Source of the DNA: Escherichia phage tonnikala
Reading direction: 5' to 3' (one strand)
DNA length: 51,277 bases
Sequence record: NC_049817.1
Below the pieces are notes generated by a model. The model was not told the DNA's origin. It ran no database searches and was given only the letters and a program-made list of their open reading frames with translations. The position numbers and the translations under genes are program-made. This document shows, piece after piece, positions 1,160 through 45,288 of this stretch; the stretch's first letter is position 1; each line of letters opens with the position of its first letter.

Positions 1160-3157
1160 ATGATTCCAAATATCGAAAAACAAATATCAGCGTTAGGCGA
1201 GGCAGTAATAAAAAGCATCCAAGAGCGATTCACGGTTGGCAATATAGTGCCTTATCCTTATCAGTGCGTTGCGTATGCCGAGATCGCAAAGCGCATGAAA
1301 AACTATGAGCATCCTTTCTTTGTTAAGGCTTCTGTGTCGGCTGGCAAAACATTGATGTTTGCGATGGTTGCTGCGCAATGCCGCAAAATGGGATTGAAAA
1401 TGATGGTCCTTGCTCGCCAGGCTGAAATTGTTGATCAGGATTCGGAAGAGATCAGCAATCTTGGCGTGCCAAACTCAATCTATTGCGCCGGACTGAAAAC
1501 AAAAAGCGCATACTTTCCGATCGTAGTCGGTTCTGAGGGCACTGTAGTAAACGGATTGTTTAAGTCGTTAGGTGATTATGTTCCGCACGTTATCGGTATT
1601 GATGAATGTCACCAGGTGGATTGGGAGGATCTCGCCGACGCGATAGAAAATAATGAATCTTACCAGCAGATGACCACTAAGAAGGATTTGCCTGTACTGA
1701 TTGGAGAAGAACAGCAATTTGATTCCAATGGCGATCCAATGTTCGGAACAGGGCGCACACAGTACACCGTAATAATCATGGAAATGATGCGCAGGTGTCG
1801 CGAGGCATACGGGCACGAATTGCGAATATTCGGTATGACTGGATCTGAGTTTCGCGGCGTGGTTCCAATACTGGTCGAAGATAAGAACAAAAAGGGATTC
1901 TGGCGTGAGCAGGTGACTAACATAGACACAAACTACTTAATCAAATTTGGTTCGGTAGTGCCAACAAATTTCGGCGACGTAGGCGACCTGGGGTATGACC
2001 TTTCAGAGTTCGAAGCCAGTAGCGAGGATGGCGTTTCAGACTTTGACGCTAAAACATTGCGCAAGATGGAAGAAAAAATCCATCAAGACGCAACAATGAC
2101 ACAGAAAATCATGGCTAAAGTCCATGAGATATGCAAAGACAGGAACGGAGTTTTAGTTACATGCGCAGGGGAAAGACATTGCAAGGAGGCCGCCGCCGCA
2201 CTGCCGCAAGGCGTTGAATACAGGATCATAACTGGCAAAACTGGAGATAATCAGCGTAAAGAGTGGCTGAGGGAGGCATACGAGGGGAAAGTAAAATACA
2301 TCTTCCAGGTACAGGCGCTTACCACTGGCGTTAACGTTCCGTTTTGGGATACTTCGGTAATACTGAGAAAGATAGGATCTCTAACATTGCTTATCCAGCT
2401 TTTGGGGCGCGGTATGCGACTGCTTAAGCAATGGCACATTGAGCAGGGATTCAAGAAAAAAGACCATCTTGTATTGGATTTTGCCGGTACTATGGATGAG
2501 TTAGGGGATTTGTATTTCGATCCAATCCTTGAGCAAGCGCAATTCCAAAAGAGATTTACAAACGGGAAAGAGCCTAAGACTTGTCCGATATGTGGAACGC
2601 TAAACAGCTTTTACGCTCGCCGATGTATGCACGTAGACGATAACGGGAAGAGATGCGAGCATTTTTGGACTTACAGAATTTGCGAGGACCAGGTAGATCC
2701 GAGAACGAAAAAGATAATCAAGCGCGGTTGCGGAACAAAAAACGACGTAGTGGCGAGAGTTTGCCGTTGTTGCGATATTTCTCTTGTCGATCCTAACGAG
2801 AAGTTAAGCGGTAAGCACTACACCAAAAACGATTGGTGCAACGTTAAATCTTTCCGCGTTGATATGACGAAAAACCAGAAAGGAATTGTTTTTTGCTATG
2901 AGCTTGAGGCCAACGGCGACACGTTCAAGGCATACGAAAGATTTTTCCCTGAGTCAGAAAGCAACATTTGCCGGACGATATGGAGAAAAATAGCATTGCA
3001 GCACATACCGGATCGCAAGATTGCTGGTATGGTGGCGAGCTATAGAAATGCGCGTAAAATAATGTCATACGCTCATCACATCATGCCTCCTGTACGCGTA
3101 ACGCATCGCAAAAACGGCAAAGGTGAGGATAACATTGCAAAACGGGAGTTTGTTTAA
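1160..3157 (+). CDS. SF2 DNA helicase with C-terminal zinc-finger region
   Basis: 665 aa; Walker A SAGKT, motif II GIDECHQ, C-terminal CPICG...C...C cysteine clusters. Confidence 0.8.
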   Translation: MIPNIEKQISALGEAVIKSIQERFTVGNIVPYPYQCVAYAEIAKRMKNYEHPFFVKASVSAGKTLMFAMVAAQCRKMGLKMMVLARQAEIVDQDSEEISNLGVPNSIYCAGLKTKSAYFPIVVGSEGTVVNGLFKSLGDYVPHVIGIDECHQVDWEDLADAIENNESYQQMTTKKDLPVLIGEEQQFDSNGDPMFGTGRTQYTVIIMEMMRRCREAYGHELRIFGMTGSEFRGVVPILVEDKNKKGFWREQVTNIDTNYLIKFGSVVPTNFGDVGDLGYDLSEFEASSEDGVSDFDAKTLRKMEEKIHQDATMTQKIMAKVHEICKDRNGVLVTCAGERHCKEAAAALPQGVEYRIITGKTGDNQRKEWLREAYEGKVKYIFQVQALTTGVNVPFWDTSVILRKIGSLTLLIQLLGRGMRLLKQWHIEQGFKKKDHLVLDFAGTMDELGDLYFDPILEQAQFQKRFTNGKEPKTCPICGTLNSFYARRCMHVDDNGKRCEHFWTYRICEDQVDPRTKKIIKRGCGTKNDVVARVCRCCDISLVDPNEKLSGKHYTKNDWCNVKSFRVDMTKNQKGIVFCYELEANGDTFKAYERFFPESESNICRTIWRKIALQHIPDRKIAGMVASYRNARKIMSYAHHIMPPVRVTHRKNGKGEDNIAKREFV

Positions 3158-3576
3158 TGGCTATAACTGATAAAGGCGATTATCTTGAGTTTTACGAAAG
3201 GGATCCAACCGACACGAGAAGGGAAGTTAATCACCAGATAGATAGTTTTCAGTGGTTGACTTATGCTCATCCTTATTTGCTGGCGTGGCATACGGTAAAC
3301 GAGAATGAGAAGTCTAAAGTAACGGCGATGATTGATCAGCAGTCCGGCTTGGTTAAGGGAGTAAGCGATTTCATCATCCTGATTGGTTTAAACGGAAAAT
3401 ACCCCTTTGCAGCGATTGAGATCAAACGAGTGAATAAATCAGGCAAGGGGAAAGCATCACCAGTCAGCGATGAACAAAAGGCTTTTTTGCGTCGCGTTCG
3501 CAGCTTAGGAGGATTCGCTGCGGTAGCCTACGGATTCAATCAGTTTAAGTTGGCTATTGAATACATGCTTAAATAG
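3157..3576 (+). CDS. VRR-NUC domain nuclease (PD-(D/E)XK fold)
   Basis: 139 aa; D...EIK core (DFIILIG...AAIEIKR); start overlaps helicase stop (TAATG). Confidence 0.6.
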   Translation: MAITDKGDYLEFYERDPTDTRREVNHQIDSFQWLTYAHPYLLAWHTVNENEKSKVTAMIDQQSGLVKGVSDFIILIGLNGKYPFAAIEIKRVNKSGKGKASPVSDEQKAFLRRVRSLGGFAAVAYGFNQFKLAIEYMLK

Positions 3577-3656: not shown

Positions 3657-4382
3657 ATGGCTAAAGATATTTTAGATAAAGACACCCATGACGCATTCGT
3701 TAGCTTTGAGCAGTTGGAGAGAGAAACGTTTATAGGGAATGCCCTTGCAACTGGAGGCCATTACCAGGCAGTAAAGCCAAATCAATATTATAAGGTAAGC
3801 GGAAACCGATACGCTGGAAGCACTACGCCGGACGTTGTGCGCGATATGTGGAGTACGCCTCAAGAGATCGTGGAGTGGATGGAATCAGAATTTGGTGAAT
3901 ACGATCTCGACGCGGCAGCAAGCCAGGAAAACGCAGTTTGCGAGAAGTTCTATAGCAAGGAGACAAACTGCTTAAAGCGGTGGTGGGGTAGCAACAAGCA
4001 CGTATGGCTTAACCCGCCGTACAGCAACCCAACTCCATTTATCAAGAAAGCAATTGAGCAAATGGAGCACAACAACCAAATTGATGTTTTGTTGCCAGCA
4101 GACAACTCTACAGCATGGTTTTATGAGGCGCAAAAAAACGCGGCTGAAATCATCTGGATCACTGGCGAGGTTTACGAAGAGGGTGGAGTAGAATACTCCC
4201 GCACCGGAAGAATCGCCTTTGTGTCTGGATTGACTGGCGAGCCTGTGCAGGGCAACAATAAGGGAAGCGTGATTTTTGTCATGCGCAAACTTAAAGAAGG
4301 CGAGGAGCAGAAAACGCGATACGTTAAGATCAGCGATATTTGCCCTTCTGTAACCGAACGCCGCGCTCGCAAACGGAGCTAA
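3657..4382 (+). CDS. DNA N6-adenine methyltransferase (phage Dam family)
   Basis: Catalytic NPPY motif (HVWLNPPYSN); RBS GGAG 8 nt before ATG at 3657 (track ORF starts at 3630). Confidence 0.8.
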   Translation: MAKDILDKDTHDAFVSFEQLERETFIGNALATGGHYQAVKPNQYYKVSGNRYAGSTTPDVVRDMWSTPQEIVEWMESEFGEYDLDAAASQENAVCEKFYSKETNCLKRWWGSNKHVWLNPPYSNPTPFIKKAIEQMEHNNQIDVLLPADNSTAWFYEAQKNAAEIIWITGEVYEEGGVEYSRTGRIAFVSGLTGEPVQGNNKGSVIFVMRKLKEGEEQKTRYVKISDICPSVTERRARKRS

Positions 4383-4899: not shown

Positions 4900-5131
4900 G
4901 CAAGGAAGAGATGCGGTATGGAATCACGCTAAAGAATGCGGTATTGCCGACGATATAAAGAAGATCGCGCAATACTTTGATATTGCAGATGTGAGCATAA
5001 TTAGCGGCGACAAGATGACTTTCCTCAAGGAAAGGCCGCGAAAAATGGTAAGAGTTCCAGCAGTTCCAACAAAAATTGATTTCAAAGAGGCAATGGCTAA
5101 AATCCGAGAGCCTCGCAAATATTATAAATGA
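4889..5131 (+). CDS. hypothetical protein
   Basis: In-frame ATG (MKVEQGRD) with GGAGG upstream; shorter than the track ORF starting at 4841. Confidence 0.4.
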   Translation: MKVEQGRDAVWNHAKECGIADDIKKIAQYFDIADVSIISGDKMTFLKERPRKMVRVPAVPTKIDFKEAMAKIREPRKYYK

Positions 5132-5225
5132 GGATAGTTATCATGTGGCGCTTGTTTGTTCTACCGTTACCCGTTATCATCGCTGTTACAGTTATGTACC
5201 ATATAGTGATGAGATAGGTAGCAGA

Positions 5226-6341
5226 ATGAAAAATGTAAAAATTACAGATGAGCAATTCAAGATCGAACGGGCGGCAGGTAAGACATATAAACAGATCGCT
5301 CAAGAGTACGGAATGAATGTTAGAAGCGTCGAGCGTCGCGCGGCGCGTCTTGCAAAGCAAGGACAGTTATCGACCATCGGAGCGCCTAGTTTTGGTGTTC
5401 ATGGTGAGTCAGTAATGACTGACAAAGAAGGAAATATAATCCTCAAGTGGACCAAAACCAGCAAGGATAAAGAGCAATTAGAGGCATTGATGCGCGCAGC
5501 TATGGAGGCGTTTAGCGAGGAAGTGCCGCGATTAGATCCAGTTCCATTGCAGGAGCGTAATTATAATGAAACGCTTTCATTGTATCCGATCTTTGACATG
5601 CACTTAGGCGCTATGGCCCATAAGCACGAATGCGGCGAAAATTGGGATACTGCGACGGCAGAGCGCGTTATGAATAACTTTATCGACTATGCTTTGATGT
5701 GCGCACCGGACAGCGAAAAGGCTGTTATCCTGATTGGTGGCGATATGCTGCATAGCGACGGCCTGGAGGCGGTGACACCTGCAAGCGGTCACGTACTTGA
5801 TCAAGATAGCCGATATGCAAAATTGGTTTACGTTGCAATCCGTGCAATGCGTCGCGCAATTAATAAAATGCTGTTAAAGCATAAACATGTTGAGGTCCAG
5901 ATCGTAGAGGGGAATCACGACCAATCAGGAATGATTTGGCTACGCGCAGCAATGGCGGCAGCATATGAGAACGAGCCGCGCGTTTACGTTGATGTTTCTC
6001 CTCGCGTTGTTCACCACACGCAATACGGAAAAACTTTCCTTGCGTACCATCACGGGCACACAGTGCGTAAACCGGAGACTTTGCTAATGATGTGCGCGTC
6101 AGATTGGCGGGAGGACTTCGGAAACTCAAAAACGATGTATGCGCACGTAGGGCACTGGCATCACCAGACCGTGACGGAAACGTCGCTTGGGATCGTGGAG
6201 GTACATAGCACCCTGGCAGCAAAAGACGCATACGCCGCGCGAGGTGGCTGGAGATCTCGACGCCGTGCGGCGGTTATCATTTACGACAAAGAGCATGGAG
6301 AAGTCGGGCGATTTGTTCACTATCCAGAAATGATGAGTTGA
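5226..6341 (+). CDS. calcineurin-like metallophosphoesterase with N-terminal sigma-70 region-4-like HTH
   Basis: Phosphoesterase motifs D-x-H (FDMHLG), GGD (IGGDMLHSD), GNHD (VEGNHDQ), HHGH, GHWHH; N-terminal TYKQIAQEYGMNVRSVERRAARL. Confidence 0.65.
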   Translation: MKNVKITDEQFKIERAAGKTYKQIAQEYGMNVRSVERRAARLAKQGQLSTIGAPSFGVHGESVMTDKEGNIILKWTKTSKDKEQLEALMRAAMEAFSEEVPRLDPVPLQERNYNETLSLYPIFDMHLGAMAHKHECGENWDTATAERVMNNFIDYALMCAPDSEKAVILIGGDMLHSDGLEAVTPASGHVLDQDSRYAKLVYVAIRAMRRAINKMLLKHKHVEVQIVEGNHDQSGMIWLRAAMAAAYENEPRVYVDVSPRVVHHTQYGKTFLAYHHGHTVRKPETLLMMCASDWREDFGNSKTMYAHVGHWHHQTVTETSLGIVEVHSTLAAKDAYAARGGWRSRRRAAVIIYDKEHGEVGRFVHYPEMMS

Positions 6342-6486: not shown

Positions 6487-6702
6487 ATGAAAGATTTTAT
6501 TAACGCAGCTACCGCCGGATCTGGCGGTTCATCTATCGCAAGCGCCGCTACAGGGCAGTTAACCATTGCTATTGCCAGTTTTGTTTTAATGGCTGCATTC
6601 GGTGCGTGGGGCGCTTACCTTCGCTGGCGTGATAGTAAAAAATTCCACGAGGCGATCGAAAAAGGTGATATTCAAAAAGCTATTGAGATCAGGGGCAAGT
6701 AA
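6487..6702 (+). CDS. holin (small membrane protein)
   Basis: 71 aa with hydrophobic segment [21 protein letters not shown] and charged C-terminus; immediately upstream of lysozyme. Confidence 0.5.
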
Positions 6703-7193
6703 TGAGCATAAAGAACAGGGTAGCGGCTGCGGCCTTTGGCGTTGCGGTTGCCTTGACTTCTCCACTTCTTGAAGAGATCGAAGGGGTAAGATACAAGCCA
6801 TACAAAGATATTGCGGGAATATGGACGGTTTGCGCAGGAATCACCGGACCAGATGTTATCCTGGGGAAAACGTACACTAAAAAAGAGTGTGATGCTTTGT
6901 TGGCTAAACATATCCAGGTTGCTAAAAAAGAAGTTGACAAGCAGGTTAAGGTTGACATTCCTGATAGTATGCGTGCAGCAATGTACTCATTCACTTATAA
7001 TGCAGGCGTGGGAGCTTTCAGAAATTCAACAATGCTGAAACTCATCAACCAGGGGAAATTAAACGAGGCTTGCGATCAGCTTTATCGTTGGACGTATTAC
7101 CATAACCCCAAAACAGGAAGGCGCGAGAAGTCTAAAGGCTTACTTAACAGGCGCAAGGTCGAATACAAATATTGCACAATGGATCTGAAATGA
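6702..7193 (+). CDS. endolysin, T4-lysozyme-like glycoside hydrolase with probable SAR N-terminus
   Basis: Catalytic E...D...T arrangement (EEIEG...[11 protein letters not shown]); Ala/Gly-rich weakly hydrophobic N-terminus; start overlaps holin stop. Confidence 0.75.
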
Positions 7194-7585
7194 TGAGGAA
7201 ATTTTTACTTACACCAATCGCAATGGCGGTGATCTTGTCTGGATGTTCAAGCGTTACGCCACTGACCGGATTAATCGGCAGTAAGCCGGAAATCACAGCA
7301 CAGGCTGGCGCGGAGAACGTGAAGCAGACAGTTGGCATTACAGCAAAGCAGGACGCCAGCACAAAACAGAAAACCACAATAAAGGAATCTGCGGTTGACA
7401 AGGTGGACACGTCCAGCAAGAAGGATTTCACAACATCAACCATTCAGGCCAATACCATCAAGGCAGACAAAATTCAGGTCGTGCAGGGTAATAACGGCAG
7501 ATGGTACGATCCAGTAATCATATGCGTGGTTGTGTTAATTGTGCTGATTTGTCTTTACTGGAGAGAAAAGAAAAAGGAGGCTTAA
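7190..7585 (+). CDS. unimolecular spanin (T1 gp11-like)
   Basis: Lipoprotein signal with lipobox LSGC at N-terminus plus C-terminal transmembrane segment ([16 protein letters not shown]); ATG overlaps lysozyme stop. Confidence 0.65.
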
Positions 7586-7593
7586 TGCCTCCT
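7575..7593. terminator. bidirectional terminator hairpin
   Basis: AGGAGGC-TTAAT-GCCTCCT stem-loop between converging + and - genes, flanked by A-run and T-rich tail. Confidence 0.45.
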
Positions 7594-7596
7594 TTG

Positions 7597-7779
7597 TTAT
7601 TCGATACGCTTTACAGTAACCAACAAAACGCCGTCTTCATCACACAAATTATGCTCTGATATATCAAACGCTCGCATGTCAGAATGAATGAGCGTTAACA
7701 TTGCGTGCATGAAGTCGTCATGTGAGATTTGAGAAGTGGCGCAAAATTTAAGAATTTCATCTATCAGTTTACTTTCCAT
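7597..7779 (-). CDS. hypothetical small protein
   Basis: Minus ORF; start trimmed to internal ATG (MESKL...) to reduce overlap with HNH gene; no good RBS seen. Confidence 0.3.
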   Translation of the reverse strand: MESKLIDEILKFCATSQISHDDFMHAMLTLIHSDMRAFDISEHNLCDEDGVLLVTVKRIE

Positions 7780-8242
7780 GATTTTTGTGGTAGCCAAATT
7801 TAACCTCCGCCTGTTCCCTTGCCTTAATTGCATCATCAAGACTTAAAAAATATCCTAAATGCACGCTCTTACCGTTATCATATATAGTTGCGTGCCATCT
7901 TTTGTTTTTCTTATTCCAGCAAACACCAACTCGACCAGAGTTATTTCTTTTTAGTAGAGATACGTTTTTGCTGTTATCTAATCTTGATGCAAGCCTTAGA
8001 TTTTCAATTCTGTTATCGCTCCTATTGTGCCATATATGGTCTATTTCCATTCCTTCTGGTATTTTTCCATTGTGCATTTCCCATATTATCCTATGCGCCA
8101 AAAACAATACACCATTATACCTTATTCTCACATATCCATTTTCACATACACATCCCGCAACGCTTCCAGGCTTTGCTTTCCCTCTTCTGTTTCTCCATCT
8201 CAATATTCCATTGTCATATATAAATACTTCATTCCAATCCAT
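7769..8242 (-). CDS. HNH homing endonuclease with AP2-like DNA-binding domain
   Basis: 157 aa; HNH core EIDHIWHNRSDNRIENLR; C-terminal AP2-like segment; gene lies in a visibly AT-rich stretch. Confidence 0.75.
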   Translation of the reverse strand: MDWNEVFIYDNGILRWRNRRGKAKPGSVAGCVCENGYVRIRYNGVLFLAHRIIWEMHNGKIPEGMEIDHIWHNRSDNRIENLRLASRLDNSKNVSLLKRNNSGRVGVCWNKKNKRWHATIYDNGKSVHLGYFLSLDDAIKAREQAEVKFGYHKNHGK

Positions 8243-8624
8243 ATCTTTTCCTTAGAGCTTTTATTTGTTGTCTATTAGCTTTTGCCTGGAACAATTCATC
8301 ATCGCCCATCTCCCCTATTCTCGCCATATCCCTGATCCAGTCGTTGCGCATACCATCCAGGCTATACAATTCGAATCCGAAAGGCCGCTTTGACGATCCT
8401 TTGGACCAGTATTTTCCGCAGACCCCATCTATATAACCAGCCGTCATCATTCTTGCGCAAAATTCCTTAGATGCAAGGCTGGCGAACATTCGCGGCGTAA
8501 GTCCGGCGGCCCGCGCGAGCCGCTCGCATTCTCTATGCTGATAGATAAATTTGGCTATGTGCTGCCTGTTAAACCAGTCGTATGACTCACACCATTTATA
8601 CAGATCAAGCAAAAACATAATCAT
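8229..8624 (-). CDS. hypothetical protein
   Basis: 131 aa; start overlaps upstream gene stop (ATGA). Confidence 0.5.
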   Translation of the reverse strand: MIMFLLDLYKWCESYDWFNRQHIAKFIYQHRECERLARAAGLTPRMFASLASKEFCARMMTAGYIDGVCGKYWSKGSSKRPFGFELYSLDGMRNDWIRDMARIGEMGDDELFQAKANRQQIKALRKRYGLE

Positions 8625-10201
8625 CCCAGCAGTATTGGATTGACAAAAATAACACCATTAATCACGCAAACATAATTTCTTTCTTCCAGCATTGGCAGCA
8701 AGTGCCCCTCTATCCTCTTCATTACGCCAGCCTGACCAACGAAAGGTTTTACCTTTCTCGCTGATTCGTACAGGGCGCGGATATTCAGAATCCCTTTATT
8801 AGCCTTGCCGTGTCTAGTGATCAATTCAATCAATTTACCCATTTCAGCATCATCACCAGCATAACCAGAAGCATTGGCGGCGCTAATGTATGTTTTGCTC
8901 AATTCCTGAAACATGATCAGCGCCTCTTGCATTGTTTCCACGTCGATCTCTTTCAACTTCTGCGGGTATCCGGCAGGATTAAACCAGTTGCGGATAACAT
9001 GCAGGACGGAAGCAAGCCTGATCACCTGTTTATCCATTTTACCCAGCGCACCGCGTAACATTGTATGAGAATACTTTCCGCCGTCTGCAAGATGCGGTTC
9101 CATATCCTGGCGAGCAATGTTGAGCACTCGCATAGCTGAACGGCTTATTTTCAGCGATATATTTGATTCGCTCATGATGTTATGCACCAATTGATAATAT
9201 TGGGCCTTCAATTCAGGATCCACCGCCTCATAGGTAGAATCACCATTTTCATCAATGAATGAGCGACGGCCTAAGAATGATTCCTCACGGACCAACAAAA
9301 AGCGCTCACTCACACCGATACCGCGCGATCCAGCGTCCATGATTCCGCTTATCGTTTCATCCTGGGCTATAACGCTCATACATCCAAGCGCGCGAAAACT
9401 CATGTTATTGTCAGCATTAGCACGGGCAATTGATACGTGACCATTATCCCACGCCTTAAGCACTAGCTCACTGTTAGTCTTCCTTTCGCTATTGGCATAG
9501 GTCAAGCCTAACAGACTGTTAATACTTGTTGCTTCGTCAGATATTACGGCAAAGTTACCTTGCTTGTTGTTGATTTTTGCCAAGCCTTCTGGAGTTGTAT
9601 CTGAAACAGGGAAAGTTATATCACACATCTTTTCCAGCTTCTCCTCCAGATCCTCTTTTTCCTGGTATAGAGATTCCATATCAGCGCCTGATCTTTCGCT
9701 TTTCATCTCCTTTGCAAGACCTGCCAACTTTGCCTGTATTTTCTTTCTTTCCTTGCGGCGTTGCTCGTTGATCTTCTCAACTTCCGCAATCATCGGAGCA
9801 ATAGCCATACTGTTGATCGCAGATTTACCAGTTGACGGCGGCTGGCTTGTAACGACGTAAAGCGCAGTCGGCTGATCGGTCCCGTGATAGTCAACCGTAA
9901 AGCGTCCAAGCATGGCGGCAGAAATGCAGCCGATAAAGTGCATGTAAGCCGATGATTCAGGGAATTGAACGGATCGCGCAATACTGCGTGATAACTTTCC
10001 GACAACATCAATATCATTACCAAGAGAAATTACGGGGTAGCGATCGTGACCGCTATTTACATCCTTCACGTCGCCCCAAAAGCTGGACGACTGGCGATAG
10101 CCGTTAGCCTGAATTGATACGCGAACTGGTGAAAGGTTCTGGCTTTCAGCCATAGCGATTATTTGCTGTGGAGTTAATTTGTTCGTTTCTAATGAAAACA
10201 T
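8621..10201 (-). CDS. P-loop NTPase, putative replication-associated protein (DUF3987-like)
   Basis: 526 aa; Walker A-like SQPPSTGKS and Walker B-like VISDEATS; AAGGAG RBS 10 nt upstream of ATG. Confidence 0.45.
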   Translation of the reverse strand: MFSLETNKLTPQQIIAMAESQNLSPVRVSIQANGYRQSSSFWGDVKDVNSGHDRYPVISLGNDIDVVGKLSRSIARSVQFPESSAYMHFIGCISAAMLGRFTVDYHGTDQPTALYVVTSQPPSTGKSAINSMAIAPMIAEVEKINEQRRKERKKIQAKLAGLAKEMKSERSGADMESLYQEKEDLEEKLEKMCDITFPVSDTTPEGLAKINNKQGNFAVISDEATSINSLLGLTYANSERKTNSELVLKAWDNGHVSIARANADNNMSFRALGCMSVIAQDETISGIMDAGSRGIGVSERFLLVREESFLGRRSFIDENGDSTYEAVDPELKAQYYQLVHNIMSESNISLKISRSAMRVLNIARQDMEPHLADGGKYSHTMLRGALGKMDKQVIRLASVLHVIRNWFNPAGYPQKLKEIDVETMQEALIMFQELSKTYISAANASGYAGDDAEMGKLIELITRHGKANKGILNIRALYESARKVKPFVGQAGVMKRIEGHLLPMLEERNYVCVINGVIFVNPILLG

Positions 10202-12429: not shown

Positions 12430-12711
12430 TTATGCGATCCCAGTTACGTTAAAACTTACAGCCTTTGTTGCGCTAAATACATAAGCATCAACAGCGCCGC
12501 CAAATACACGAATTTTACCCTGGCCGTACTGCGCATTCATATTTCGCCAAACCGTTCTATTAGAGCAGAATGCGCTACCAGTCTTAATAAGCGTATCCAT
12601 CTCTTTTCTTAGATCGCGATAGTCAAGCCAGAATCTAAAGGCGCGCTGTTTAATTCGCGCCGCCTTGATTTTTTCTCTTGCGCTATTGAAATCATTCTTT
12701 TCGTATGCCAT
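12430..12711 (-). CDS. hypothetical protein
   Basis: 93 aa, basic. Confidence 0.45.
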   Translation of the reverse strand: MAYEKNDFNSAREKIKAARIKQRAFRFWLDYRDLRKEMDTLIKTGSAFCSNRTVWRNMNAQYGQGKIRVFGGAVDAYVFSATKAVSFNVTGIA

Positions 12712-12908
12712 TAAATGATCTCCATGTATGTTTCAAAGCCATTTAACTTGAACAGGCCGTTTTCACATTTGCGCACGTTCCAAGTTAGCCCTGAGTGGTA
12801 CGCCTCCATATCATCAAGGTCAATGGTGATTTCAGCACCTTTCTTAAACAAACCTTTTTCGTGAGACTTGTCGCGCTTAACAACTTTAACATCAACCTGA
12901 TTTTCCAT
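12711..12908 (-). CDS. hypothetical protein
   Basis: 65 aa; start/stop overlap with neighbour. Confidence 0.45.
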   Translation of the reverse strand: MENQVDVKVVKRDKSHEKGLFKKGAEITIDLDDMEAYHSGLTWNVRKCENGLFKLNGFETYMEII

Positions 12909-12963
12909 CTTTAAATCCTCGTTTGTTGTCGATGCGGTAAATATACCAACTTACCGCATACGA

Positions 12964-12980
12964 CTTTTAACAAAAAGTGC
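12964..12980 (-). promoter_or_regulatory. conserved intergenic motif copy (minus orientation, variant)
   Basis: Reverse complement GCACTTTTTGTTAAAAG, directly after the stop of the 12984..13391 gene. Confidence 0.4.
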
Positions 12981-12983
12981 TTT

Positions 12984-13391
12984 TTATTCCGTGGTGTCGA
13001 TAGTGATTGGCCGCAACTCCTGGAGCGTCACACGATGATCGCGAATAATTGATTCTTTATCTTTCAGGCCATTGTAGCAATTTTGCGCTCTCTTTTTAAA
13101 ATGGCCTGCATAACAAAGGGTGGCCCGTCCATTCTCGCGATTAGTTGCAATTACGCGGTAAATAGGCCGTAATTCCTCTTCAAATACTGGTCGGAAAGCG
13201 TAACTTTCAAAGCCAGTGCCATAGAATCGGTTATCATCGTCACGCGAGATGTAAAGAGGTTCGCGATAATCATCAAGAACATACTCATCGCCATATTTTT
13301 CATCGCGCAATACGGCGTATTCAGCGCCTTTTGTGAAAGTCCATGCGTGACTGGTGTTTTCGCCAATGAATTTAAGAGACTGCGATACCAT
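12984..13391 (-). CDS. hypothetical protein
   Basis: 135 aa. Confidence 0.5.
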   Translation of the reverse strand: MVSQSLKFIGENTSHAWTFTKGAEYAVLRDEKYGDEYVLDDYREPLYISRDDDNRFYGTGFESYAFRPVFEEELRPIYRVIATNRENGRATLCYAGHFKKRAQNCYNGLKDKESIIRDHRVTLQELRPITIDTTE

Positions 13392-13405
13392 TTTTTGATC
13401 TCCTG

Positions 13406-13633
13406 TTAGTAAGTGATTGAAGAAATATCATCAAAGCCCTGGAATTCCGCATTCCATACCAGGAAGTTTGAGAGATTCTCACAACGATACCAGCCGCCGC
13501 TCAATTCCATGTATGTAGCATAACCGCCATGGATAGCCTTAACAGCGTAGCGCTTATGGTTGCGAGTGATGAAAATCGCAAAACGTTTGTCGTTTGTCTG
13601 GTCGATTGCTTTCTGGTTGGCGACTACTGACAT
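13406..13633 (-). CDS. hypothetical protein
   Basis: 75 aa. Confidence 0.45.
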   Translation of the reverse strand: MSVVANQKAIDQTNDKRFAIFITRNHKRYAVKAIHGGYATYMELSGGWYRCENLSNFLVWNAEFQGFDDISSITY

Positions 13634-13690
13634 TTTGAAAATCCTCTGTTTCGTTTCGATGCGCTTACTATACCAATCAGCAGCGCATCG

Positions 13691-15135: not shown

Positions 15136-15569
15136 GGTTGCAGGGGAGATAGTGAAACCTTCCCCTCTTGCCTCACTTTTCCGCCTGGCTGTCAGTGGCT
15201 GTTGTCTTTTGTTCGCCCCTGTTACCGATTTCAGGCGGCGTGTTTCCGCGAGGTTTTCCGGTGTAGCGAAAACGGAAAAAACAAAAAAAATCCTATATAA
15301 TACATTGAAAATAAAGATTATTTATTTATATATATCTATAATGTTTTCTTTTTGTTCTCACTGTTACAGTGCTTTTTGCTGGGTGTGGTGTGGTTGTGTG
15401 TTGGTATATATGGATAGTTGCGCGCGCGGCGGATTGCATATGTATATATACTTTTTCCGGCGGATTGCGTTAACAGCGTGAACAGAAAAATAACAGCCCT
15501 GAAATCAACAACTTGCGCATGATTTTGTAGTTTTTCGATATTGGTAACGTTTTGAATACAACAAAAACA

Positions 15570-15597
15570 TTGACACGCACCAAATAGCTTTTATAAT
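15570..15597 (+). promoter_or_regulatory. sigma-70-type promoter for rightward early operon
   Basis: TTGACA (15570-15575), 16-nt spacer, TATAAT (15592-15597); about 30 nt upstream of the first rightward gene. Confidence 0.55.
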
Positions 15598-15628
15598 GCG
15601 CCAACAGTCAACAACTGGAGGAAAGGAA

Positions 15629-16093
15629 ATGGAACAGAAGACCACTAAGGACTATTGCGATTGGCTTCGCGAGCTTGGTCGCCGCCTGGCTAGTGGCGAT
15701 ATTGAAGAGTATAAAATGTCACTAATTGACCTGGCCGGAATGTTAAGCGGTGACGACTGCTACAAGATCACGCGCAGTTCATCCTACAGCCGGACCATTA
15801 TCAACCGCGTTCCAGAAGTAAGGGCCGCAGGTCGGGTAAGCATCAAGGTAGAGGAAACGGAAGATGATAAATTTTACGTTTTCCGCATGGTCCGAGAATC
15901 GAAAAGGAAAATCATCACGCCCGAAGAATTGCCAGCCATCAAGGCAAGGGCGATCAAAAAGTTTGCCGATCGCTTACTGGCAGCAATCCCGAACATCGTG
16001 GACCTGGAAGGGGATAAACTGGCTGGAGCTTGTGAGGGCGTAAGCCGCTACCAGGATATGATCCGCGAAATCATCAAAGAGGAGGAGCAATAA
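15629..16093 (+). CDS. hypothetical protein, first gene of rightward early operon
   Basis: Start set at MEQKTTKDY with GGAGG RBS; the track start at 15596 lies inside the promoter -10. Confidence 0.55.
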   Translation: MEQKTTKDYCDWLRELGRRLASGDIEEYKMSLIDLAGMLSGDDCYKITRSSSYSRTIINRVPEVRAAGRVSIKVEETEDDKFYVFRMVRESKRKIITPEELPAIKARAIKKFADRLLAAIPNIVDLEGDKLAGACEGVSRYQDMIREIIKEEEQ

Positions 16094-16365
16094 TGAAAAA
16101 GGCGTTAATCGGCGTTTTGGTGGCAATGGCATTCCTGACCGGATGCAAAGAAGATGGCGCGCATGTTGGCAATGTGCAGATGGCTAACCCTGGCGATGAC
16201 TACAGCGTAAGGGAGCTATTCACCGCTGACGGTTGCACCGTTTACCGATTCTATGACGGTCGCACTGTTTACTTCACCAACTGCAAGGGCACGACTAGCT
16301 GGGAAGTGTCGAAAAGCAATGGCAAAGGCACGAAGACAGAACATATGACCGTCGAGACAAAATAG
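16093..16365 (+). CDS. small lipoprotein
   Basis: Signal peptide with lipobox (MKKALIGVLVAMAFLTGC); 90 aa. Confidence 0.55.
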   Translation: MKKALIGVLVAMAFLTGCKEDGAHVGNVQMANPGDDYSVRELFTADGCTVYRFYDGRTVYFTNCKGTTSWEVSKSNGKGTKTEHMTVETK

Positions 16366-40614: not shown

Positions 40615-43600
40615 ATGGCTAAATATATGATAAGCGGCAGTAAAGGGGGCGGTCAAAAGCCCTACGTGCCAAAAGAGATGGAAGATAACCTGATCTCGAT
40701 AAACAAGATTAAAGTTTTGCTGGCTGTATCTGATGGCGAGTGCGATCCAGATTTTACGTTGCGTGATCTTTATCTTGATGATGTTCCGGTTATTGCCAGC
40801 GATGGCACTGTTAACTACGAGGGAGTTACGGCTGAATATAGGCCAGGTACGCAGACGCAAGATTACATCCAGGGTTTTACTGACACATCAAGTGAGGTTA
40901 CAGTTGCCAGAGATATTACCGGAGACAATCCTTATGTTATTTCTGTTACAAATAAAAACCTATCTGCGGTAAGAATAAAGATCCTGATGCCAGTAGGCAT
41001 TAAAACAGAGGATAATGGCGATCTTGTTGGCGTAAGGGTTGAGTATGCCGTAGATATGGCTGTTGATGGCGGTTCTTATAGCGAGGTTATGAGAGATGTA
41101 ATTGACGGCAAGACAAGATCAGGATACGACCGCAGCAGAAGGATTGATCTTCCTAAGTTTGATGAGCGCGTTTTAATCAGGGTTAAGCGACTTACCCCAG
41201 ACAGCACATCTTCAAAGGTGACTGATAAAATCAAACTGCAAAGTTACGCTGAGGTTGTGGATGCAAAATTCCGTTATCCTCTGACTGGCCTTGTATTTGT
41301 AGAGTTTGACAGCGAATTGTTTCCTACACAAATACCTAACATTTCTATAAAAAAGAAGTGGAAGATTATTAATGTGCCAAGCAACTATGATCCAATATCA
41401 AGAGAATATCACGGGTCATGGGATGGGACTTTTAAAAAAGCGTGGTCAAATAATCCTGCATGGGTTCTTTATGATCTGGTGACTAATCAGCGTTATGGAC
41501 TTGACCAGCGAGAGTTAGGAATACAGATCGACAAGTGGAGCTTATACGAGGCAGGCGTTTACTGTGATCAGAAAGTTCCAGACGGTAAGGGCGGTACAGA
41601 GCCTCGCTACCTATGCGATGTGGTGATTCAGAATCAAGTTGAGGCTTATCAGCTAATCCGTGACATTTGCTCAATCTTTCGCGGAATGAGCTTTTGGAAT
41701 GGTGAGAGCTTATCAATCGTGATTGATAAGCCGCGCGATCCATCATACGTGTTTACTAATGAAAACGTCATCAACGGTGATTTTCAGTACACAACCGCAA
41801 GCGAAAAAAGCATGTACACGCAATGTAATGTGACGTTTGACGACGAACAAAACATGTATCAACAGGACGTCGAGGGGGTTTTTGATACTGAGGCGGCATT
41901 ACGATTTGGATACAATCCAACAAGCATTACAGCGATCGGGTGTACACGCAGGAGCGAAGCGAATCGTCGAGGTCGGTGGGTTTTGAAAACAAACCTTAGA
42001 AGCACTACTGTAAACTTTTCTACCGGACTAGAGGGGATGATTCCATCCATAGGTGATGTGATTGCTATCGCTGATAATTTTCAGAGCAGCAATCTAACGT
42101 TAAATCTTTCGGGCCGAGTAATGGAAGTTTCAGGCTTGCAAGTTTTCGTTCCGTTTAAGGTTGATGTGCGTCCTGGTGATTTTATTATCATCAACAAGCC
42201 GGACGGAAAGCCAGTTAAGCGAACGATCTCAAAGGTGAGCGCAGACGGAAAAACCATTGAGTTAAATATTGGCTTTGGTTTTGATGTTAAGCCTGATACT
42301 GTTTTTGCGATTGACCGTACTGACCTTGCGTTGCAGCAATACGTTGTGACAACTATCAGCAAGGGTGATGACGAAAACGAGTTTACCTTTTCAATCACGG
42401 CTGTGGAGTACGATCCGAACAAATACGACGAGATTGATTATGGCGTAAACATTGATGACAGGCCAACTTCAATTGTTCAGCCTGACGTGATGGCAGCGCC
42501 GGAGAATGTTCAGATCTCATCTTATTCTCGCGTCGTGCAGGGTGTTAGCGTTGAAACTATGGTTGTTTCATGGGATAAGGTTCCTTACGCATCGCTTTAT
42601 GAAATGCAGTGGCGAAAAGGTGATGGTAACTGGCTGAACACGCCGCAGACCGCTAACAAAGAGATAGAGGTAGAAGGAATTTATTCAGGCAACTACCAAG
42701 TAAGGGTTAGATCTGTTTCTGCAAGTGGGAACACCTCCCCGTGGTCAAAGATTGTAACCGCCACCCTGACAGGTAAAGTTGGCGAGCCAGGAGCGCCGAT
42801 TAATCTTACAGCTTCTGATAATGAAGTTTTTGGCATTCGTGTCAAATGGGGTATGCCGGAAGGATCAGGAGATACGGCTTACATTGAGCTTCACCAATCG
42901 CCAGATGGAACGGTGGAAAACTCAAGTTTGCTTACGCTGATCCCGTATCCTCAATATGAGTATTGGCATAGTACGTTACCAGCTGGGAAAGTTGTATGGT
43001 ATAGAATCCGTAGCGTTGACAGAATAGGCAACGTTTCCGGCTGGACTGACTTTGTTCGTGGCATGGCGTCAGATGATGTTGAATCTGTTTTAGGCGACAT
43101 TCTGGACAAGATTTTTGATACCGAAGCTGGTCAAGAAATCAAAGAGAACGCCATAGACAGTGCCAACAAAATCAAAGACCAGGCGCAATCAATCATCCAG
43201 AACGCTTTGGCAAATGATTCTGATGTTAGAGTTATGAAAAAGGAGAATGGGAAACGGAAAGCTGAATTTAGGCAATCTATACAGATGATTGCTGATGAAA
43301 CAGAGGCAAGGGTAACAGCGTTAACGCAATTAAAAGCAGAATTTGATGAGGAGATAACTAGCGAAGTAACAAGACTTGATCAGGCGATCGCAACAGAATC
43401 AGAAACGCGAGCAACAGCTATAGAGGAATTAAAATCACAGATTGGTGATGATATTCAGGGGCAGTTAACGAGAGTTGAGGAAGCGATTGCAAGCGAAACA
43501 GAGGCGCGCGTTTCTGCCGATACTGCATTAACGGCAAAGTTTGGTGATCTTGAGTCGGCACTTACTGAAAAACTTGATTCATGGGCTGGCGTTGATTCCG

Positions 43601-44040
43601 TTGGTGCTCAATATTCAATGAAGCTGGGCCTAACCTATAATGGTCAGCAGTACAGCGCCGGAATGGTTATGCAGTTAACGCAATCACCGCAAGGATTAAT
43701 ATCACAGATTCTGTTTGACGCTAACAGATTCGCGATCATGACAAGTTCTAGCGGCGGGGCATATACGCTTCCTTTCGTGGTTGAGAATAACCAGGTTTTC
43801 ATCAATAGCTTACTTGTGAAAGATGGTTCAATAACTAATGCCATGATTGGAAACTTTATTCAGTCAAACAATTTTGTTCAAAATCAGCAAGGTTGGAGGC
43901 TTGATAAAAACGGAACATTTGAAAACTACGGATCAACTCCAGGAGAGGGAGCTACTAAATTCACCAACGAAGGATTGAAGGTAAAAGATGCAAACGGAGT
44001 ATTGAGGGTTGAAGTCGGAAGGATTACCGGAAGCTGGTAA
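40615..44040 (+). CDS. tail tip / central fibre protein (lambda gpJ-like host specificity protein)
   Basis: 1141 aa, position after I-like gene, beta-rich domains in the middle, coiled-coil segment near C-terminus. Confidence 0.8.
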   Translation: MAKYMISGSKGGGQKPYVPKEMEDNLISINKIKVLLAVSDGECDPDFTLRDLYLDDVPVIASDGTVNYEGVTAEYRPGTQTQDYIQGFTDTSSEVTVARDITGDNPYVISVTNKNLSAVRIKILMPVGIKTEDNGDLVGVRVEYAVDMAVDGGSYSEVMRDVIDGKTRSGYDRSRRIDLPKFDERVLIRVKRLTPDSTSSKVTDKIKLQSYAEVVDAKFRYPLTGLVFVEFDSELFPTQIPNISIKKKWKIINVPSNYDPISREYHGSWDGTFKKAWSNNPAWVLYDLVTNQRYGLDQRELGIQIDKWSLYEAGVYCDQKVPDGKGGTEPRYLCDVVIQNQVEAYQLIRDICSIFRGMSFWNGESLSIVIDKPRDPSYVFTNENVINGDFQYTTASEKSMYTQCNVTFDDEQNMYQQDVEGVFDTEAALRFGYNPTSITAIGCTRRSEANRRGRWVLKTNLRSTTVNFSTGLEGMIPSIGDVIAIADNFQSSNLTLNLSGRVMEVSGLQVFVPFKVDVRPGDFIIINKPDGKPVKRTISKVSADGKTIELNIGFGFDVKPDTVFAIDRTDLALQQYVVTTISKGDDENEFTFSITAVEYDPNKYDEIDYGVNIDDRPTSIVQPDVMAAPENVQISSYSRVVQGVSVETMVVSWDKVPYASLYEMQWRKGDGNWLNTPQTANKEIEVEGIYSGNYQVRVRSVSASGNTSPWSKIVTATLTGKVGEPGAPINLTASDNEVFGIRVKWGMPEGSGDTAYIELHQSPDGTVENSSLLTLIPYPQYEYWHSTLPAGKVVWYRIRSVDRIGNVSGWTDFVRGMASDDVESVLGDILDKIFDTEAGQEIKENAIDSANKIKDQAQSIIQNALANDSDVRVMKKENGKRKAEFRQSIQMIADETEARVTALTQLKAEFDEEITSEVTRLDQAIATESETRATAIEELKSQIGDDIQGQLTRVEEAIASETEARVSADTALTAKFGDLESALTEKLDSWAGVDSVGAQYSMKLGLTYNGQQYSAGMVMQLTQSPQGLISQILFDANRFAIMTSSSGGAYTLPFVVENNQVFINSLLVKDGSITNAMIGNFIQSNNFVQNQQGWRLDKNGTFENYGSTPGEGATKFTNEGLKVKDANGVLRVEVGRITGSW

Positions 44041-44046
44041 AAAAAA

Positions 44047-44061
44047 GGGGGCGTAGCCCCC
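44047..44061. terminator. bidirectional terminator
   Basis: GGGGGC-GTA-GCCCCC hairpin flanked by A-run (5') and T-rich (3') between converging genes. Confidence 0.5.
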
Positions 44062-44068
44062 TTTAATT

Positions 44069-44683
44069 TTAATCATAGTGTGATGCATTTATAACCAAAA
44101 CAGATGAAGCGGTGTAAATACCAACAGGTCCAGGGGTTTGTGCAACCTGCCTGGAAAAAGAGTAGATCCCGTTACCATACGCGGCAGCTTGAGACTCAAA
44201 AATCATAAATCCACCTAAAGCCGGATTAGGTACAGAGTTTAACGCTGTTAGTGATGGCATTATTGCGCAAGGGTAGCCCAGGTTAACATCAAACGCGATC
44301 CCGCTCACACCAACTTGCTTTGCATCAAGCGGCCTCATTTTTCCATGATAAACCATTTCACCATGAGCGTTATAAAACGCTATGCCGTGACTACCTGGAG
44401 GAGTCACCATGTTACTAAAAGCATAAACAATAACCTCCCCTTGATTATCAGATCTATCAATTCTTATTGCGTGCCTTCCACCATTGTTAAATTGCGTAAA
44501 TGATATGTATGATTTAGCAGTCAATCTAACAAAGAAAAAACATACCCTATCAACAGGAATTGACGAAGTAAAAACGGTTCCGGTATTAGCAGATATTACT
44601 GCCCGATCAATTAGATTAACTGGAGTGAAATCTGGACTTAACCATAACGATCCGTCTGATTTTTTTATACTCATCCCGTACAT
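44069..44683 (-). CDS. hypothetical protein (leftward module adjacent to tail genes)
   Basis: Start set at MYGMS with GGGGGTGA RBS; 204 aa; shares short sequence pattern with upstream 92-aa protein. Confidence 0.5.
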   Translation of the reverse strand: MYGMSIKKSDGSLWLSPDFTPVNLIDRAVISANTGTVFTSSIPVDRVCFFFVRLTAKSYISFTQFNNGGRHAIRIDRSDNQGEVIVYAFSNMVTPPGSHGIAFYNAHGEMVYHGKMRPLDAKQVGVSGIAFDVNLGYPCAIMPSLTALNSVPNPALGGFMIFESQAAAYGNGIYSFSRQVAQTPGPVGIYTASSVLVINASHYD

Positions 44684-44685
44684 TA

Positions 44686-44964
44686 TCACCCCCAAAAAGT
44701 ATATATATATCTTGAATCAGATCCAGAAAGCCCACTCCATGTAACGGTGTCGCCACTTACCCCTAAGTTTGGCGCCCCAGGGTCGCCACCGCGCCAGGAA
44801 TTCATGCCAACATATATTGCTTTCAATGATTTACCTGGCGGCCTGTTTTGGTAAGTCTTGCTACCTGATGGCTGAGTGAATTTATCAAGAAAGAAAACAG
44901 GCGTTAAAAGTCCTGTAACTTCCCTCCCTCGATCGTCATATATTGCATAACCATATTGCGCCAT
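44686..44964 (-). CDS. hypothetical protein
   Basis: 92 aa, Gly-rich. Confidence 0.45.
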   Translation of the reverse strand: MAQYGYAIYDDRGREVTGLLTPVFFLDKFTQPSGSKTYQNRPPGKSLKAIYVGMNSWRGGDPGAPNLGVSGDTVTWSGLSGSDSRYIYTFWG

Positions 44965-45239
44965 TAATTACACCTCAAATCAATAAATTTACTTTCATTT
45001 TGCCAGCGGTTGATAAATTTAACTTCTTTATTGTCAACGCTCAACCTGTATTGCTTTTGGCTGAATCTGTTTTCGCGGACTGCATTAATTTTGACCTCAT
45101 GGAATCCGTTAACAGGGAATGTTTTAACGTTAAATTTTGCCGTGCAATCGATCTCTTTGAAGCCGCCAGTAGGCGACGCTGCGCATCCGGTCAGAGCGGC
45201 TACGGTGGCGATAACTGCGATTAATTTTTTCATCTTCAA
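44964..45239 (-). CDS. lipoprotein, candidate superinfection-exclusion protein
   Basis: Signal peptide plus lipobox (MKKLIAVIATVAALTGC); first gene of leftward operon next to tail-tip genes. Confidence 0.55.
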   Translation of the reverse strand: MKMKKLIAVIATVAALTGCAASPTGGFKEIDCTAKFNVKTFPVNGFHEVKINAVRENRFSQKQYRLSVDNKEVKFINRWQNESKFIDLRCN

Positions 45240-45288
45240 TACTCCTTAGTTGTCGTTGCCTGTAACTATACACGATCCGACAAGCGGC

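What the first reader, a model, noticed from the sequence alone, without database searches (positions are those of the whole stretch)
7769..8242. Free-standing HNH-AP2 homing endonuclease in an AT-rich island between lysis and early genes
The HNH gene sits in a stretch that is visibly more AT-rich than its surroundings and that throws up many spurious AT-rich ORFs on the opposite strand. It lies at the junction between the rightward replication/lysis block and the leftward early block. This pattern fits a recently acquired mobile homing endonuclease.
Basis: partly seen in the sequence, partly recalled or inferred. Interest (0 to 1): 0.5.

Follow-up and report, generated by a model that had tools for sequence, protein, structure and literature searches.

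The report
Mobile HNH-AP2 homing endonuclease cassette
The ORF is a real, intact, free-standing HNH-AP2 homing endonuclease gene that entered this T1-like coliphage recently as a 670-bp AT-rich cassette; this is an ordinary, well-known kind of selfish phage gene.

Summary

The window is a Warwickvirus (Drexlerviridae). At least 63 related phage records carry the empty site (ydbL, small ORF, gp36-like gene, terminator). Only 8 carry this cassette.

The mobile unit is 7598-8267:
- a Hanrivervirus-type allele of a 60-aa small ORF
- the HNH gene
- a recoded 12-codon ydbL tail

It replaces 459 bp of the relatives, including the gp36-like gene. The cassette is 89-96% identical to Hanrivervirus copies while the flanks are 74-81%. 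It is 100% identical to phage brachmannus over 851 bp, although those flanks differ by 1.5-5.5% and lie closer to the HNH-less phage MikeNSara. Orthologs down to 61% identity occupy the same site. dN/dS is 0.15-0.26, and one lineage carries a frameshifted copy.

This fits the homing endonuclease life cycle. Cleavage activity and the target site are inferred, not shown. Orthologs are already annotated as homing endonucleases, so interest is low.

The parts
7769..8242 (-). Free-standing HNH(HNN)-AP2 homing endonuclease gene, 157 aa. The nuclease domain spans about residues 30-95 (D68-H69, N77, N81, N90, N93). The AP2 DNA-binding domain spans about residues 103-150.
7598..8267 (.). Mobile cassette or co-conversion tract: the segment that replaces tonijn 2703-3161 (459 bp) of HNH-less relatives. 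GC is 36.6%.
   Evidence: BLAST breakpoints against tonijn, grams and MikeNSara. The same boundaries appear for Fulano1 against grams. Identity to Fulano1 is 89-96.5% inside and 74-81% outside. Identity to brachmannus is 100%.
7597..7779 (-). Small ORF (60 aa, PHROG 9539, function unknown), Hanrivervirus-type allele. Its ATG (7779-7777) overlaps the last codons of the HNH gene (ATGGAAAGTAA).
   Evidence: PHROG 9539 E=2e-23. 96.5% nt identity to Fulano1 and about 90% to grams, but only 70% to tonijn's own unannotated copy at L001 3002-3196.
8229..8267 (-). Recoded C-terminal tail of ydbL (QIKALRKRYGLE*). It contains the HNH Shine-Dalgarno sequence (AAGGA) and start codon. It replaces DLEALRRKFNIT* of empty-site genomes.
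   Evidence: Sequences read. Protein similarity in register has shuffle p<=1e-4, while nt identity is only about 46-56% (read). GC is 30.8%.
8229..8624 (-). ydbL-like gene (131 aa, PHROG 2794), the upstream neighbour. Its body (8268-8624) is Warwickvirus-type.
   Evidence: PHROG 2794 E=3.5e-60. The window from 8268 rightward, including the ydbL body, is 98.7% identical to tonijn. The ydbL body is 74.5% identical to Fulano1.
8268..8279 (-). Right boundary: the 12-mer GCTAATAGACAA (minus strand), shared by occupied and empty genomes of both genera.
7573..7595 (.). Hairpin terminator shared by the convergent spanin gene and the minus-strand operon. It marks the left boundary of the cassette.
   Evidence: Terminator scan: 9-bp stem, 5 GC pairs. 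Conserved in all aligned relatives.
8261..8302 (-). Left-behind 5' end of the ancestral small ORF, now a 13-codon remnant (MMNCSRQKLIDNK*). It ends 18 nt upstream of the HNH start codon (stop at 8263-8261, ATG at 8242-8240).
   Evidence: Read from the sequences. Any functional role is not tested.

Best explanation
The ORF encodes an intact free-standing homing endonuclease of the HNH(HNN)-AP2 class. It has an I-HmuI-like His-Me-finger nuclease domain followed by an AP2 DNA-binding domain.

The gene sits inside the minus-strand operon (helicase, ydbL, HNH, small ORF) and is probably translationally coupled on both sides. Its ATG lies 11 nt before the ydbL stop and is preceded by AAGGA. Its stop overlaps the ATG of the small ORF.

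Inferred mechanism: in a mixed infection with an HNH-less relative, the enzyme nicks or cuts the empty allele at or near the overlap of the ydbL 3' end and the small-ORF 5' end. Repair from the HNH-carrying genome then copies the gene together with linked flanking sequence.

That is how this Warwickvirus lineage acquired a 670-bp cassette (7598-8267) of Hanrivervirus-like origin. On the right, conversion stops at the insertion point (GCTAATAGACAA in ydbL). On the left, it runs to the conserved terminator hairpin. It carries in a foreign small-ORF allele and removes the gp36-like gene.

The carrier genome would be immune because the overlap region is split in two and the ydbL tail is recoded.

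Shown here: family, fold, intact motif, purifying selection, sporadic same-site distribution, cassette boundaries, and recent lateral spread. Inferred: nuclease activity, the target site, immunity by recoding, and the direction of transfer.
For: Family and fold.
Free-standing: own start and stop, no intron.
Foreign composition.
Presence/absence polymorphism at one site: 8 occupied against at least 63 empty records.
Orthologs at 88%, 80% and 61% identity all lie between ydbL and the small ORF. A 55% homolog lies elsewhere.
Identity step at identical boundaries in two genera.
Zero differences from brachmannus over 851 bp with flanks 1.5-5.5% divergent; the next-longest identical run is 342 bp. 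Flanks are closer to HNH-less MikeNSara, at 0.8-2.2%.
dN/dS 0.15-0.26 among intact copies, and a frameshifted copy in the BEK7 group. This matches the invade, decay and re-invade cycle described for HNN-AP2 genes (PMC2248197).
The ydbL tail is conserved as protein (p<=1e-4) but recoded as DNA.
HNH-AP2 is a recognised class of homing endonucleases in phages (PMC10448857, PMC5714182, both citing Magnani 2004). Nuclease genes at the borders of exchanged segments are a documented pattern (PMC10448857).
Against: There is no biochemical evidence of cleavage, and the target site is unknown. A recombination tract that includes the gene does not prove the gene caused it, because general phage recombination gives similar mosaics.

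The best available Hanrivervirus copies are only 89% identical in the HNH gene, so the true donor is unsampled and the direction of transfer is an inference.

The AP2 match is below Pfam's gathering score. The repeat finder did not report the proposed diverged duplication of the overlap region. That proposal rests on codon-level reading and a 12-residue similarity test.

The closest structural relative, I-HmuI, is a nickase, so a double-strand break is not assured.
Confidence: 0.8

Rival explanations
1. Passive passenger. The HNH-AP2 gene is no longer an active homing enzyme, or never targeted this site. The cassette moved between phages by ordinary homologous recombination in mixed infections, like any other mosaic module.
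For: Drexlerviridae genomes are mosaic. Divergence from brachmannus varies between 1.5% and 10% along the genome. The left crossover lies in a conserved hairpin that would favour recombination anyway. The BEK7-group copies are frameshifted yet still present.
Against: The same two boundaries recur in two genera, and the right one coincides exactly with the insertion point. The longest identical tract in about 30 kb is centred on the gene. The ORF is intact, keeps its catalytic residues and is under purifying selection.
Confidence: 0.12
2. Domesticated function. The protein serves the phage rather than itself. It might be an AP2-based transcriptional regulator, or a weapon that degrades or excludes co-infecting relatives or host DNA.
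For: Purifying selection. Operon-embedded, coupled expression. DNA-binding domains of homing endonucleases are known to be co-opted (PMC10448857).
Against: The gene is absent from most close relatives, so it is dispensable. It has decayed in one lineage. Its composition is foreign. Marker exclusion of competitors is in any case part of the homing endonuclease mechanism, not a separate one.
Confidence: 0.05
3. Packaging-associated HNH. The nuclease assists the terminase in genome cutting, as HK97 gp74-type HNH proteins do.
For: Only the presence of an HNH motif in a siphovirus supports this.
Against: The protein belongs to HNH_3, the I-HmuI group, and carries an AP2 domain. It is not of the PF01844 type with Cys dyads (family knowledge, PMC5714182, PMC2248197). 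It lies next to lysis and replication genes, not the terminase. Most relatives that package normally lack it.
Confidence: 0.01
4. Spurious ORF in an AT-rich non-coding spacer.
For: Low GC, and several overlapping ORFs on the other strand.
Against: Pfam E=8e-22, PHROG E=2e-67, 928 homologs with E<=1e-10, a confident fold and dN/dS well below 1. The antisense ORFs match nothing.
Confidence: 0.01

Closest known systems
HNN/HNH-AP2 free-standing endonucleases of phages (PHROG 99; Fulano1 gp49 'putative HNH endonuclease'; BEK7 'homing endonuclease'; the HNN-AP2 genes of Xanthomonas phages Xp10/OP1/Xop411; multiple copies in T1, Rtp and T5)
   Same: Same two-domain architecture, size of about 160 aa and motif boxes (AHRxxW, DH, DNR, NLR, xN), with no Cys dyads. 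All are free-standing between genes, sporadically distributed and prone to decay (PMC2248197). Fulano1 gp49 is the ortholog at the same site, 89% identical at the nt level.
   Different: Nothing of kind. This copy sits in a Warwickvirus backbone, whereas the annotated orthologs are in Hanrivervirus. The Xanthomonas phage study found no site conservation, whereas this lineage keeps one site down to 61% identity.
I-HmuI (PDB 1u3e), the intron-encoded HNH homing endonuclease of Bacillus phage SPO1
   Different: I-HmuI is encoded inside a group I intron, uses different C-terminal DNA-binding modules rather than AP2, and nicks one strand (established knowledge). The present gene is free-standing and its cleavage chemistry is unknown.
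T4 free-standing homing endonucleases (Seg and Mob families, such as SegG and MobE) and marker exclusion
   Same: Free-standing genes inserted between or next to conserved genes. They spread in mixed infections with co-conversion of flanking markers, and the carrier is protected by sequence differences at the target (PMC10448857 and its references 10-11). The identity step and recoded flank seen here fit that model.
   Different: Seg proteins are GIY-YIG enzymes, and Mob proteins are HNH enzymes without AP2. Homing has been shown experimentally for them but not here.
ICP1 'IPA-HNH' homing endonucleases and HEG islands (Barth et al. 2023)
   Same: An N-terminal HNH domain plus a C-terminal AP2 domain. 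The nuclease gene sits at the edge of a segment exchanged between phages (PMC10448857).
   Different: The ICP1 proteins are too divergent for the Pfam HNH_3 profile, whereas this one matches it strongly. The exchanged tract here is 0.67-0.85 kb, not more than 10 kb.
Plant and apicomplexan AP2/ERF DNA-binding domains (TEM1 7et4, AtERF1 2gcc)
   Different: Those are transcription factors without a nuclease domain. The sequence match to Pfam AP2 is below the family cut-off.

Membership tests
HNH_3 / His-Me finger group 2 (I-HmuI-like) endonucleases | Sequence match to the family profile above the curated threshold | tested here: met
   Pfam PF13392, 77 bits against a cut-off of 24.8, E=8.4e-22. 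PHROG 99 E=2.4e-67.
HNH_3 / His-Me finger group 2 (I-HmuI-like) endonucleases | beta-beta-alpha-metal fold | tested here: met
HNH_3 / His-Me finger group 2 (I-HmuI-like) endonucleases | Catalytic Asp-His and the conserved Asn residues are present | tested here: met
   D68 and H69 are invariant. N77, N81 and N90 are at least 90% conserved and N93 is invariant in 54 homologs. numbers residues one lower because M1 was omitted from the input.
HNH_3 / His-Me finger group 2 (I-HmuI-like) endonucleases | Metal-dependent DNA nicking or cleavage | not testable with these tools
   Needs purified protein and a substrate.
AP2 DNA-binding domain | Sequence match to Pfam AP2 above the gathering score | tested here: not met
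   22.3 bits against a cut-off of 33.3, E=1.6e-4, residues 103-132. Some homologs do carry a precomputed PF00847 hit.
AP2 DNA-binding domain | Three-stranded antiparallel sheet packed on a C-terminal helix, superimposable on solved AP2 domains | tested here: met
Free-standing homing endonuclease gene (HEG) | Own ORF between host genes, not inside an intron or intein | tested here: met
   Own ATG and TAA between ydbL and the small ORF. No Rfam family in 6800-9200 at E<=1.
Free-standing homing endonuclease gene (HEG) | Presence/absence polymorphism at one defined site among close relatives | tested here: met
   8 records have the cassette. At least 63 have the contiguous empty configuration. Relatives 98-99% identical in the flanks lack it.
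Free-standing homing endonuclease gene (HEG) | Orthologs keep the same insertion site | tested here: met
   Copies at 91%, 88%, 80% and 61% identity all lie between ydbL and the small ORF. A 55% homolog lies in a different context.
Free-standing homing endonuclease gene (HEG) | Signature of lateral spread with co-converted flanks | tested here: met
   Identity step of 89-96% against 74-81%. An identical 851-bp tract against flanks 1.5-5.5% divergent, with flank phylogeny incongruent.
Free-standing homing endonuclease gene (HEG) | Enzyme cleaves the HEG-less allele, and the gene is over-inherited in mixed infection | not testable with these tools
   Requires a cleavage assay and phage crosses.

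The most novel reading that the evidence does not exclude
The element is more than a gene dropped between two genes. It invaded a pair of overlapping genes: in empty genomes the ydbL 3' end and the small-ORF 5' end share about 50-74 nt in two reading frames.

The cassette resolves this overlap by carrying both halves separately. One half is a recoded ydbL tail that also supplies the endonuclease's ribosome-binding site and start codon. The other is a rebuilt small-ORF start that overlaps the endonuclease's stop codon.

If so, the recoding both preserves two host proteins and destroys the enzyme's own target, a GC-rich core CTGCGCCGTAA present in the empty alleles of both genera. This would give self-immunity. 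The cassette would then drive cross-genus exchange (Hanrivervirus to Warwickvirus) of the linked small-ORF allele and loss of the gp36-like gene.
Probability: 0.35. Interest if true: 0.35.

Novelty: already known. Interest (0 to 1): 0.15.

Why it matters
It matters little for discovery. HNH-AP2 homing endonucleases are among the commonest accessory genes of phages: 3555 phage records hold a homolog. Orthologs at this very site are already annotated.

The locus does have practical value as a clean natural example. It offers defined empty and occupied alleles, base-pair boundaries, an identical copy in a diverged genome and a decayed copy in another. It could therefore be used to test homing and co-conversion in easily grown T1-like coliphages. 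It also marks a region to mask in Drexlerviridae phylogenies and taxonomy, where such tracts distort identity measures (PMC8594841).

Tried and rejected
- Sequence search of the PDB gave no significant hit (best E=0.23; a Plasmodium AP2 domain at E=0.82). The fold comparison was needed instead.
- NCBIfam has no model for the HNH protein, the small ORF or ydbL.
- Rfam found nothing in 6800-9200, which rules out an intron-borne endonuclease.
- The repeat finder reported no flanking direct repeat or target-site duplication. The proposed duplicated overlap is too diverged for it and rests.
- A profile built from 54 homologs found no second HNH_3-type gene in the window, so there is no paralog family here.
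- Shigella phage 2019SD1 looked like a partly deleted copy. Its locus aligns in scrambled, inverted pieces, and its HNH protein entry is flagged UNVERIFIED_ASMBLY, so it was not used.
- I considered that loss of the gp36-like gene might be obligatorily linked to the endonuclease. This was rejected because the 61% ortholog locus L012 keeps it.
- Magnani et al. 2004 is not held in the library and is cited only through PMC10448857 and PMC5714182.
- JLBYU41 has the same record length as the window (51277 bp) but carries only a 90% small-ORF match and no HNH, so this is a coincidence.

Full report
**What the window is.** The 3 kb around the finding is 98.5% identical to Escherichia phage brachmannus. 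With a gap, it is 98-99% identical to many Warwickvirus phages (Drexlerviridae, Tempevirinae) such as MikeNSara, tonijn and SECphi27.

Gene order around the finding:
- Plus strand: exonuclease (5076-6341), holin (6487-6702), endolysin (6702-7193), spanin (7172-7585).
- Minus strand, converging on these: DUF3987 helicase (8621-10201), ydbL-like gene (8229-8624, PHROG 2794), the HNH ORF (7769-8242), and a small ORF (PHROG 9539).

The ORF listing extends the small ORF to 80 aa (7597-7839). Homologs show that its real start is the ATG at 7779, giving 60 aa. A hairpin terminator at 7573-7595 separates the two blocks.

**Checking the observation.** It matches Pfam HNH_3 strongly (E=8.4e-22) and AP2 weakly (E=1.6e-4, below the gathering score). 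It matches PHROG 99 'HNH endonuclease' over its full length (E=2.4e-67).

GC is 36.3% against 44.8% for the window. That is the 0.86th percentile of equal-sized windows and the lowest of 50 non-overlapping ORFs of at least 100 aa (median 45.9%, sd 2.5%). GC3 is 31.6% against 46-54% in the neighbours. The three antisense ORFs (83-117 aa) match no PHROG family.

D68-H69 and the Asn residues of the DNR, NLR and xN boxes are invariant or nearly so. There are no Cys dyads. This is the 'HNN-AP2' subtype described for phages T1, Rtp, T5 and the Xanthomonas phages (PMC2248197). It falls in group 2 of the His-Me finger classification (PMC5714182). Rfam finds no intron, so the gene is free-standing. It is the only gene of this type in the window.

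**Anatomy of the insertion.** Against HNH-less Warwickviruses (tonijn, MikeNSara), the window is collinear up to 7597 and again from 8268. Window 7598-8267 (670 bp) replaces 459 bp of tonijn (L001 2703-3161).

The empty allele reads, on the minus strand: ydbL; a small ORF whose 5' end overlaps the ydbL 3' end in another frame (unannotated in tonijn, L001 3002-3196); a gp36-like gene (PHROG 27210); then the terminator.

The occupied allele reads: ydbL with a different 12-residue tail; HNH; small ORF; terminator. The gp36-like gene is absent.

At the upstream junction, the HNH ATG lies inside the new ydbL tail (…AAGGAAAAGATATGGATTGGAATGA) behind an AAGGA Shine-Dalgarno sequence. At the downstream junction, the small-ORF ATG overlaps the HNH stop (ATCATGGAAAGTAA).

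The new ydbL tail (QIKALRKRYGLE) is similar in register to the old one (DLEALRRKFNIT), with shuffle p<=1e-4. At the DNA level it is only about half identical. The small-ORF N-terminus is rebuilt (MESKLID… in place of MMNCSRQKLID…). The old small-ORF start remains upstream of the HNH gene as a 13-codon remnant (8261-8302). I read this as the overlap region being present twice, with each copy keeping one reading frame. The repeat finder did not detect this, so it remains an inference.

**Distribution.**
- In the phage collection, 8 records carry the cassette at 80% coverage or more: brachmannus, Fulano1, four BEK/BEC phages and two mislabelled 'Campylobacter' records.
- At least 63 records carry the contiguous empty configuration.
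- Metagenomic orthologs at 88%, 80% and 61% protein identity all sit between ydbL and the small ORF, next to the same helicase and lysis genes.
- A 55% homolog is in a different context.
- The 61% ortholog locus keeps the gp36-like gene, so that deletion is linked to the cassette but is not obligatory.

**Evidence of lateral movement.**
1. Against Hanrivervirus Fulano1, identity is 96.5% in the small ORF, 89% in the HNH gene and 95% in the ydbL tail. It is 74-81% in holin, endolysin, spanin and the ydbL body. The window's small ORF is only 70% identical to the Warwickvirus allele. The cassette is therefore Hanrivervirus-like inside a Warwickvirus backbone.
2. The same two boundaries (the terminator, and GCTAATAGACAA in ydbL) separate Fulano1 from HNH-less grams within Hanrivervirus.
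3. Against brachmannus there is no difference over 7565-8414 (851 bp). This is the longest identical run in about 30 kb of alignment carrying 1361 differences, and the next-longest run is 342 bp. At the local flank divergence of about 2%, I calculate the chance of 670 identical bases as about 1e-6.
4. The flanks are closer to HNH-less MikeNSara (0.8-2.2% divergence) than to brachmannus (1.5-5.5%). So the history of the cassette disagrees with the history of the genome.

**State of the gene.** dN/dS against intact orthologs is 0.15-0.26, so the protein is under purifying selection. The BEK7-group copy is frameshifted at about residue 113, inside the AP2 domain. Intact, spreading and decayed copies at a single site are what the homing endonuclease life cycle predicts (PMC2248197).

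**Mechanism.** The best-supported reading is a homing endonuclease that cuts or nicks the empty ydbL/small-ORF junction of a co-infecting relative and is copied in during repair.

The asymmetry of the tract fits a break close to the right boundary. On the ydbL side, conversion ends at the insertion point. On the other side, the poor homology of the small ORF and the gp36 heterology push the crossover out to the conserved terminator.

A GC-rich core (CTGCGCCGTAA) is shared by the empty alleles of both genera. It is lost from the recoded ydbL tail and only partly kept after the HNH gene. AP2 domains are reported to favour GC-rich sites (PMC10448857). This makes the core a candidate recognition element, but that is speculation. 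None of the enzymology has been shown.

**Comparison with what is known, and verdict.** The element is an ordinary member of the HNH(HNN)-AP2 free-standing homing endonucleases. Orthologs at the same site are already annotated as 'homing endonuclease' or 'putative HNH endonuclease'. An identical copy exists in an unannotated public record. The pattern of nuclease genes at the edges of exchanged segments has been described (PMC10448857). The problem such genes pose for Drexlerviridae phylogeny has also been noted (PMC8594841).

The refinement is that the mobile unit is a 670-bp replacement cassette. Novelty: already known. Interest: low.

Noticed in passing
window 45220-45693: This is the lowest-GC stretch of the window (30%). 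It falls largely in the 496-bp gap between the divergently oriented ORFs 44964-45239 (-) and 45736-46791 (+), overlapping only the first 20 bp of the former, and is not a gene island. The surrounding 43525-46865 is also the segment most diverged from brachmannus (89.9% identity).
   Followed up: partly
L001 (tonijn) 3002-3196 (-); L005 (grams) about 2498-2690 (-): A conserved small ORF (PHROG 9539, 60-64 aa) overlaps the 3' end of ydbL in another frame. It is not annotated in the RefSeq records of tonijn and grams, which show an apparent intergenic gap of about 197 bp there.
   Followed up: yes
L004 (BEK7) 2817-3291; also BEK1-23, BEK12B and BEC3: The orthologous HNH gene has a 1-nt deletion that frameshifts it at about residue 113, inside the AP2 domain. 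The annotated 'homing endonuclease' CDS (2905-3291) is therefore a truncated, probably dead copy.
   Followed up: yes
L002 (Fulano1) 3673-4146 and 5803-6303; L007 (pSf-1) 3018-3530: Other HNH endonuclease genes, only about 70-72% similar at the DNA level, occupy the next gene junctions of the same operon (ydbL|helicase and downstream of the helicase) in some Hanriverviruses. This operon is a hot spot for endonuclease insertions. The window has none of these.
   Followed up: partly
MG065638.1, MG065636.1 and about 20 other 'Campylobacter phage' records: Records labelled as Campylobacter jejuni phages align along this T1-like coliphage locus at 69-78% identity, and two of them include the HNH cassette. 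They look like Drexlerviridae sequences with a doubtful host label.
   Followed up: no
L006 (Shigella phage 2019SD1) 2400-5300: The locus aligns to the window in many short, inverted and duplicated pieces. Its HNH protein entry is flagged UNVERIFIED_ASMBLY. This is probably a misassembly rather than biology.
   Followed up: partly
window 8261-8302 (-): The former start of the small ORF survives inside ydbL as a 13-codon ORF (MMNCSRQKLIDNK*) behind a GGGGAG Shine-Dalgarno sequence. It ends 18 nt before the HNH start codon. It could influence HNH translation, but this was not tested.
   Followed up: no
window 12440-13640, 15220-16100 and 48300-50470: These segments have no megablast match to brachmannus although both flanks do. 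They are further replaced or inserted modules that were not examined.
   Followed up: no
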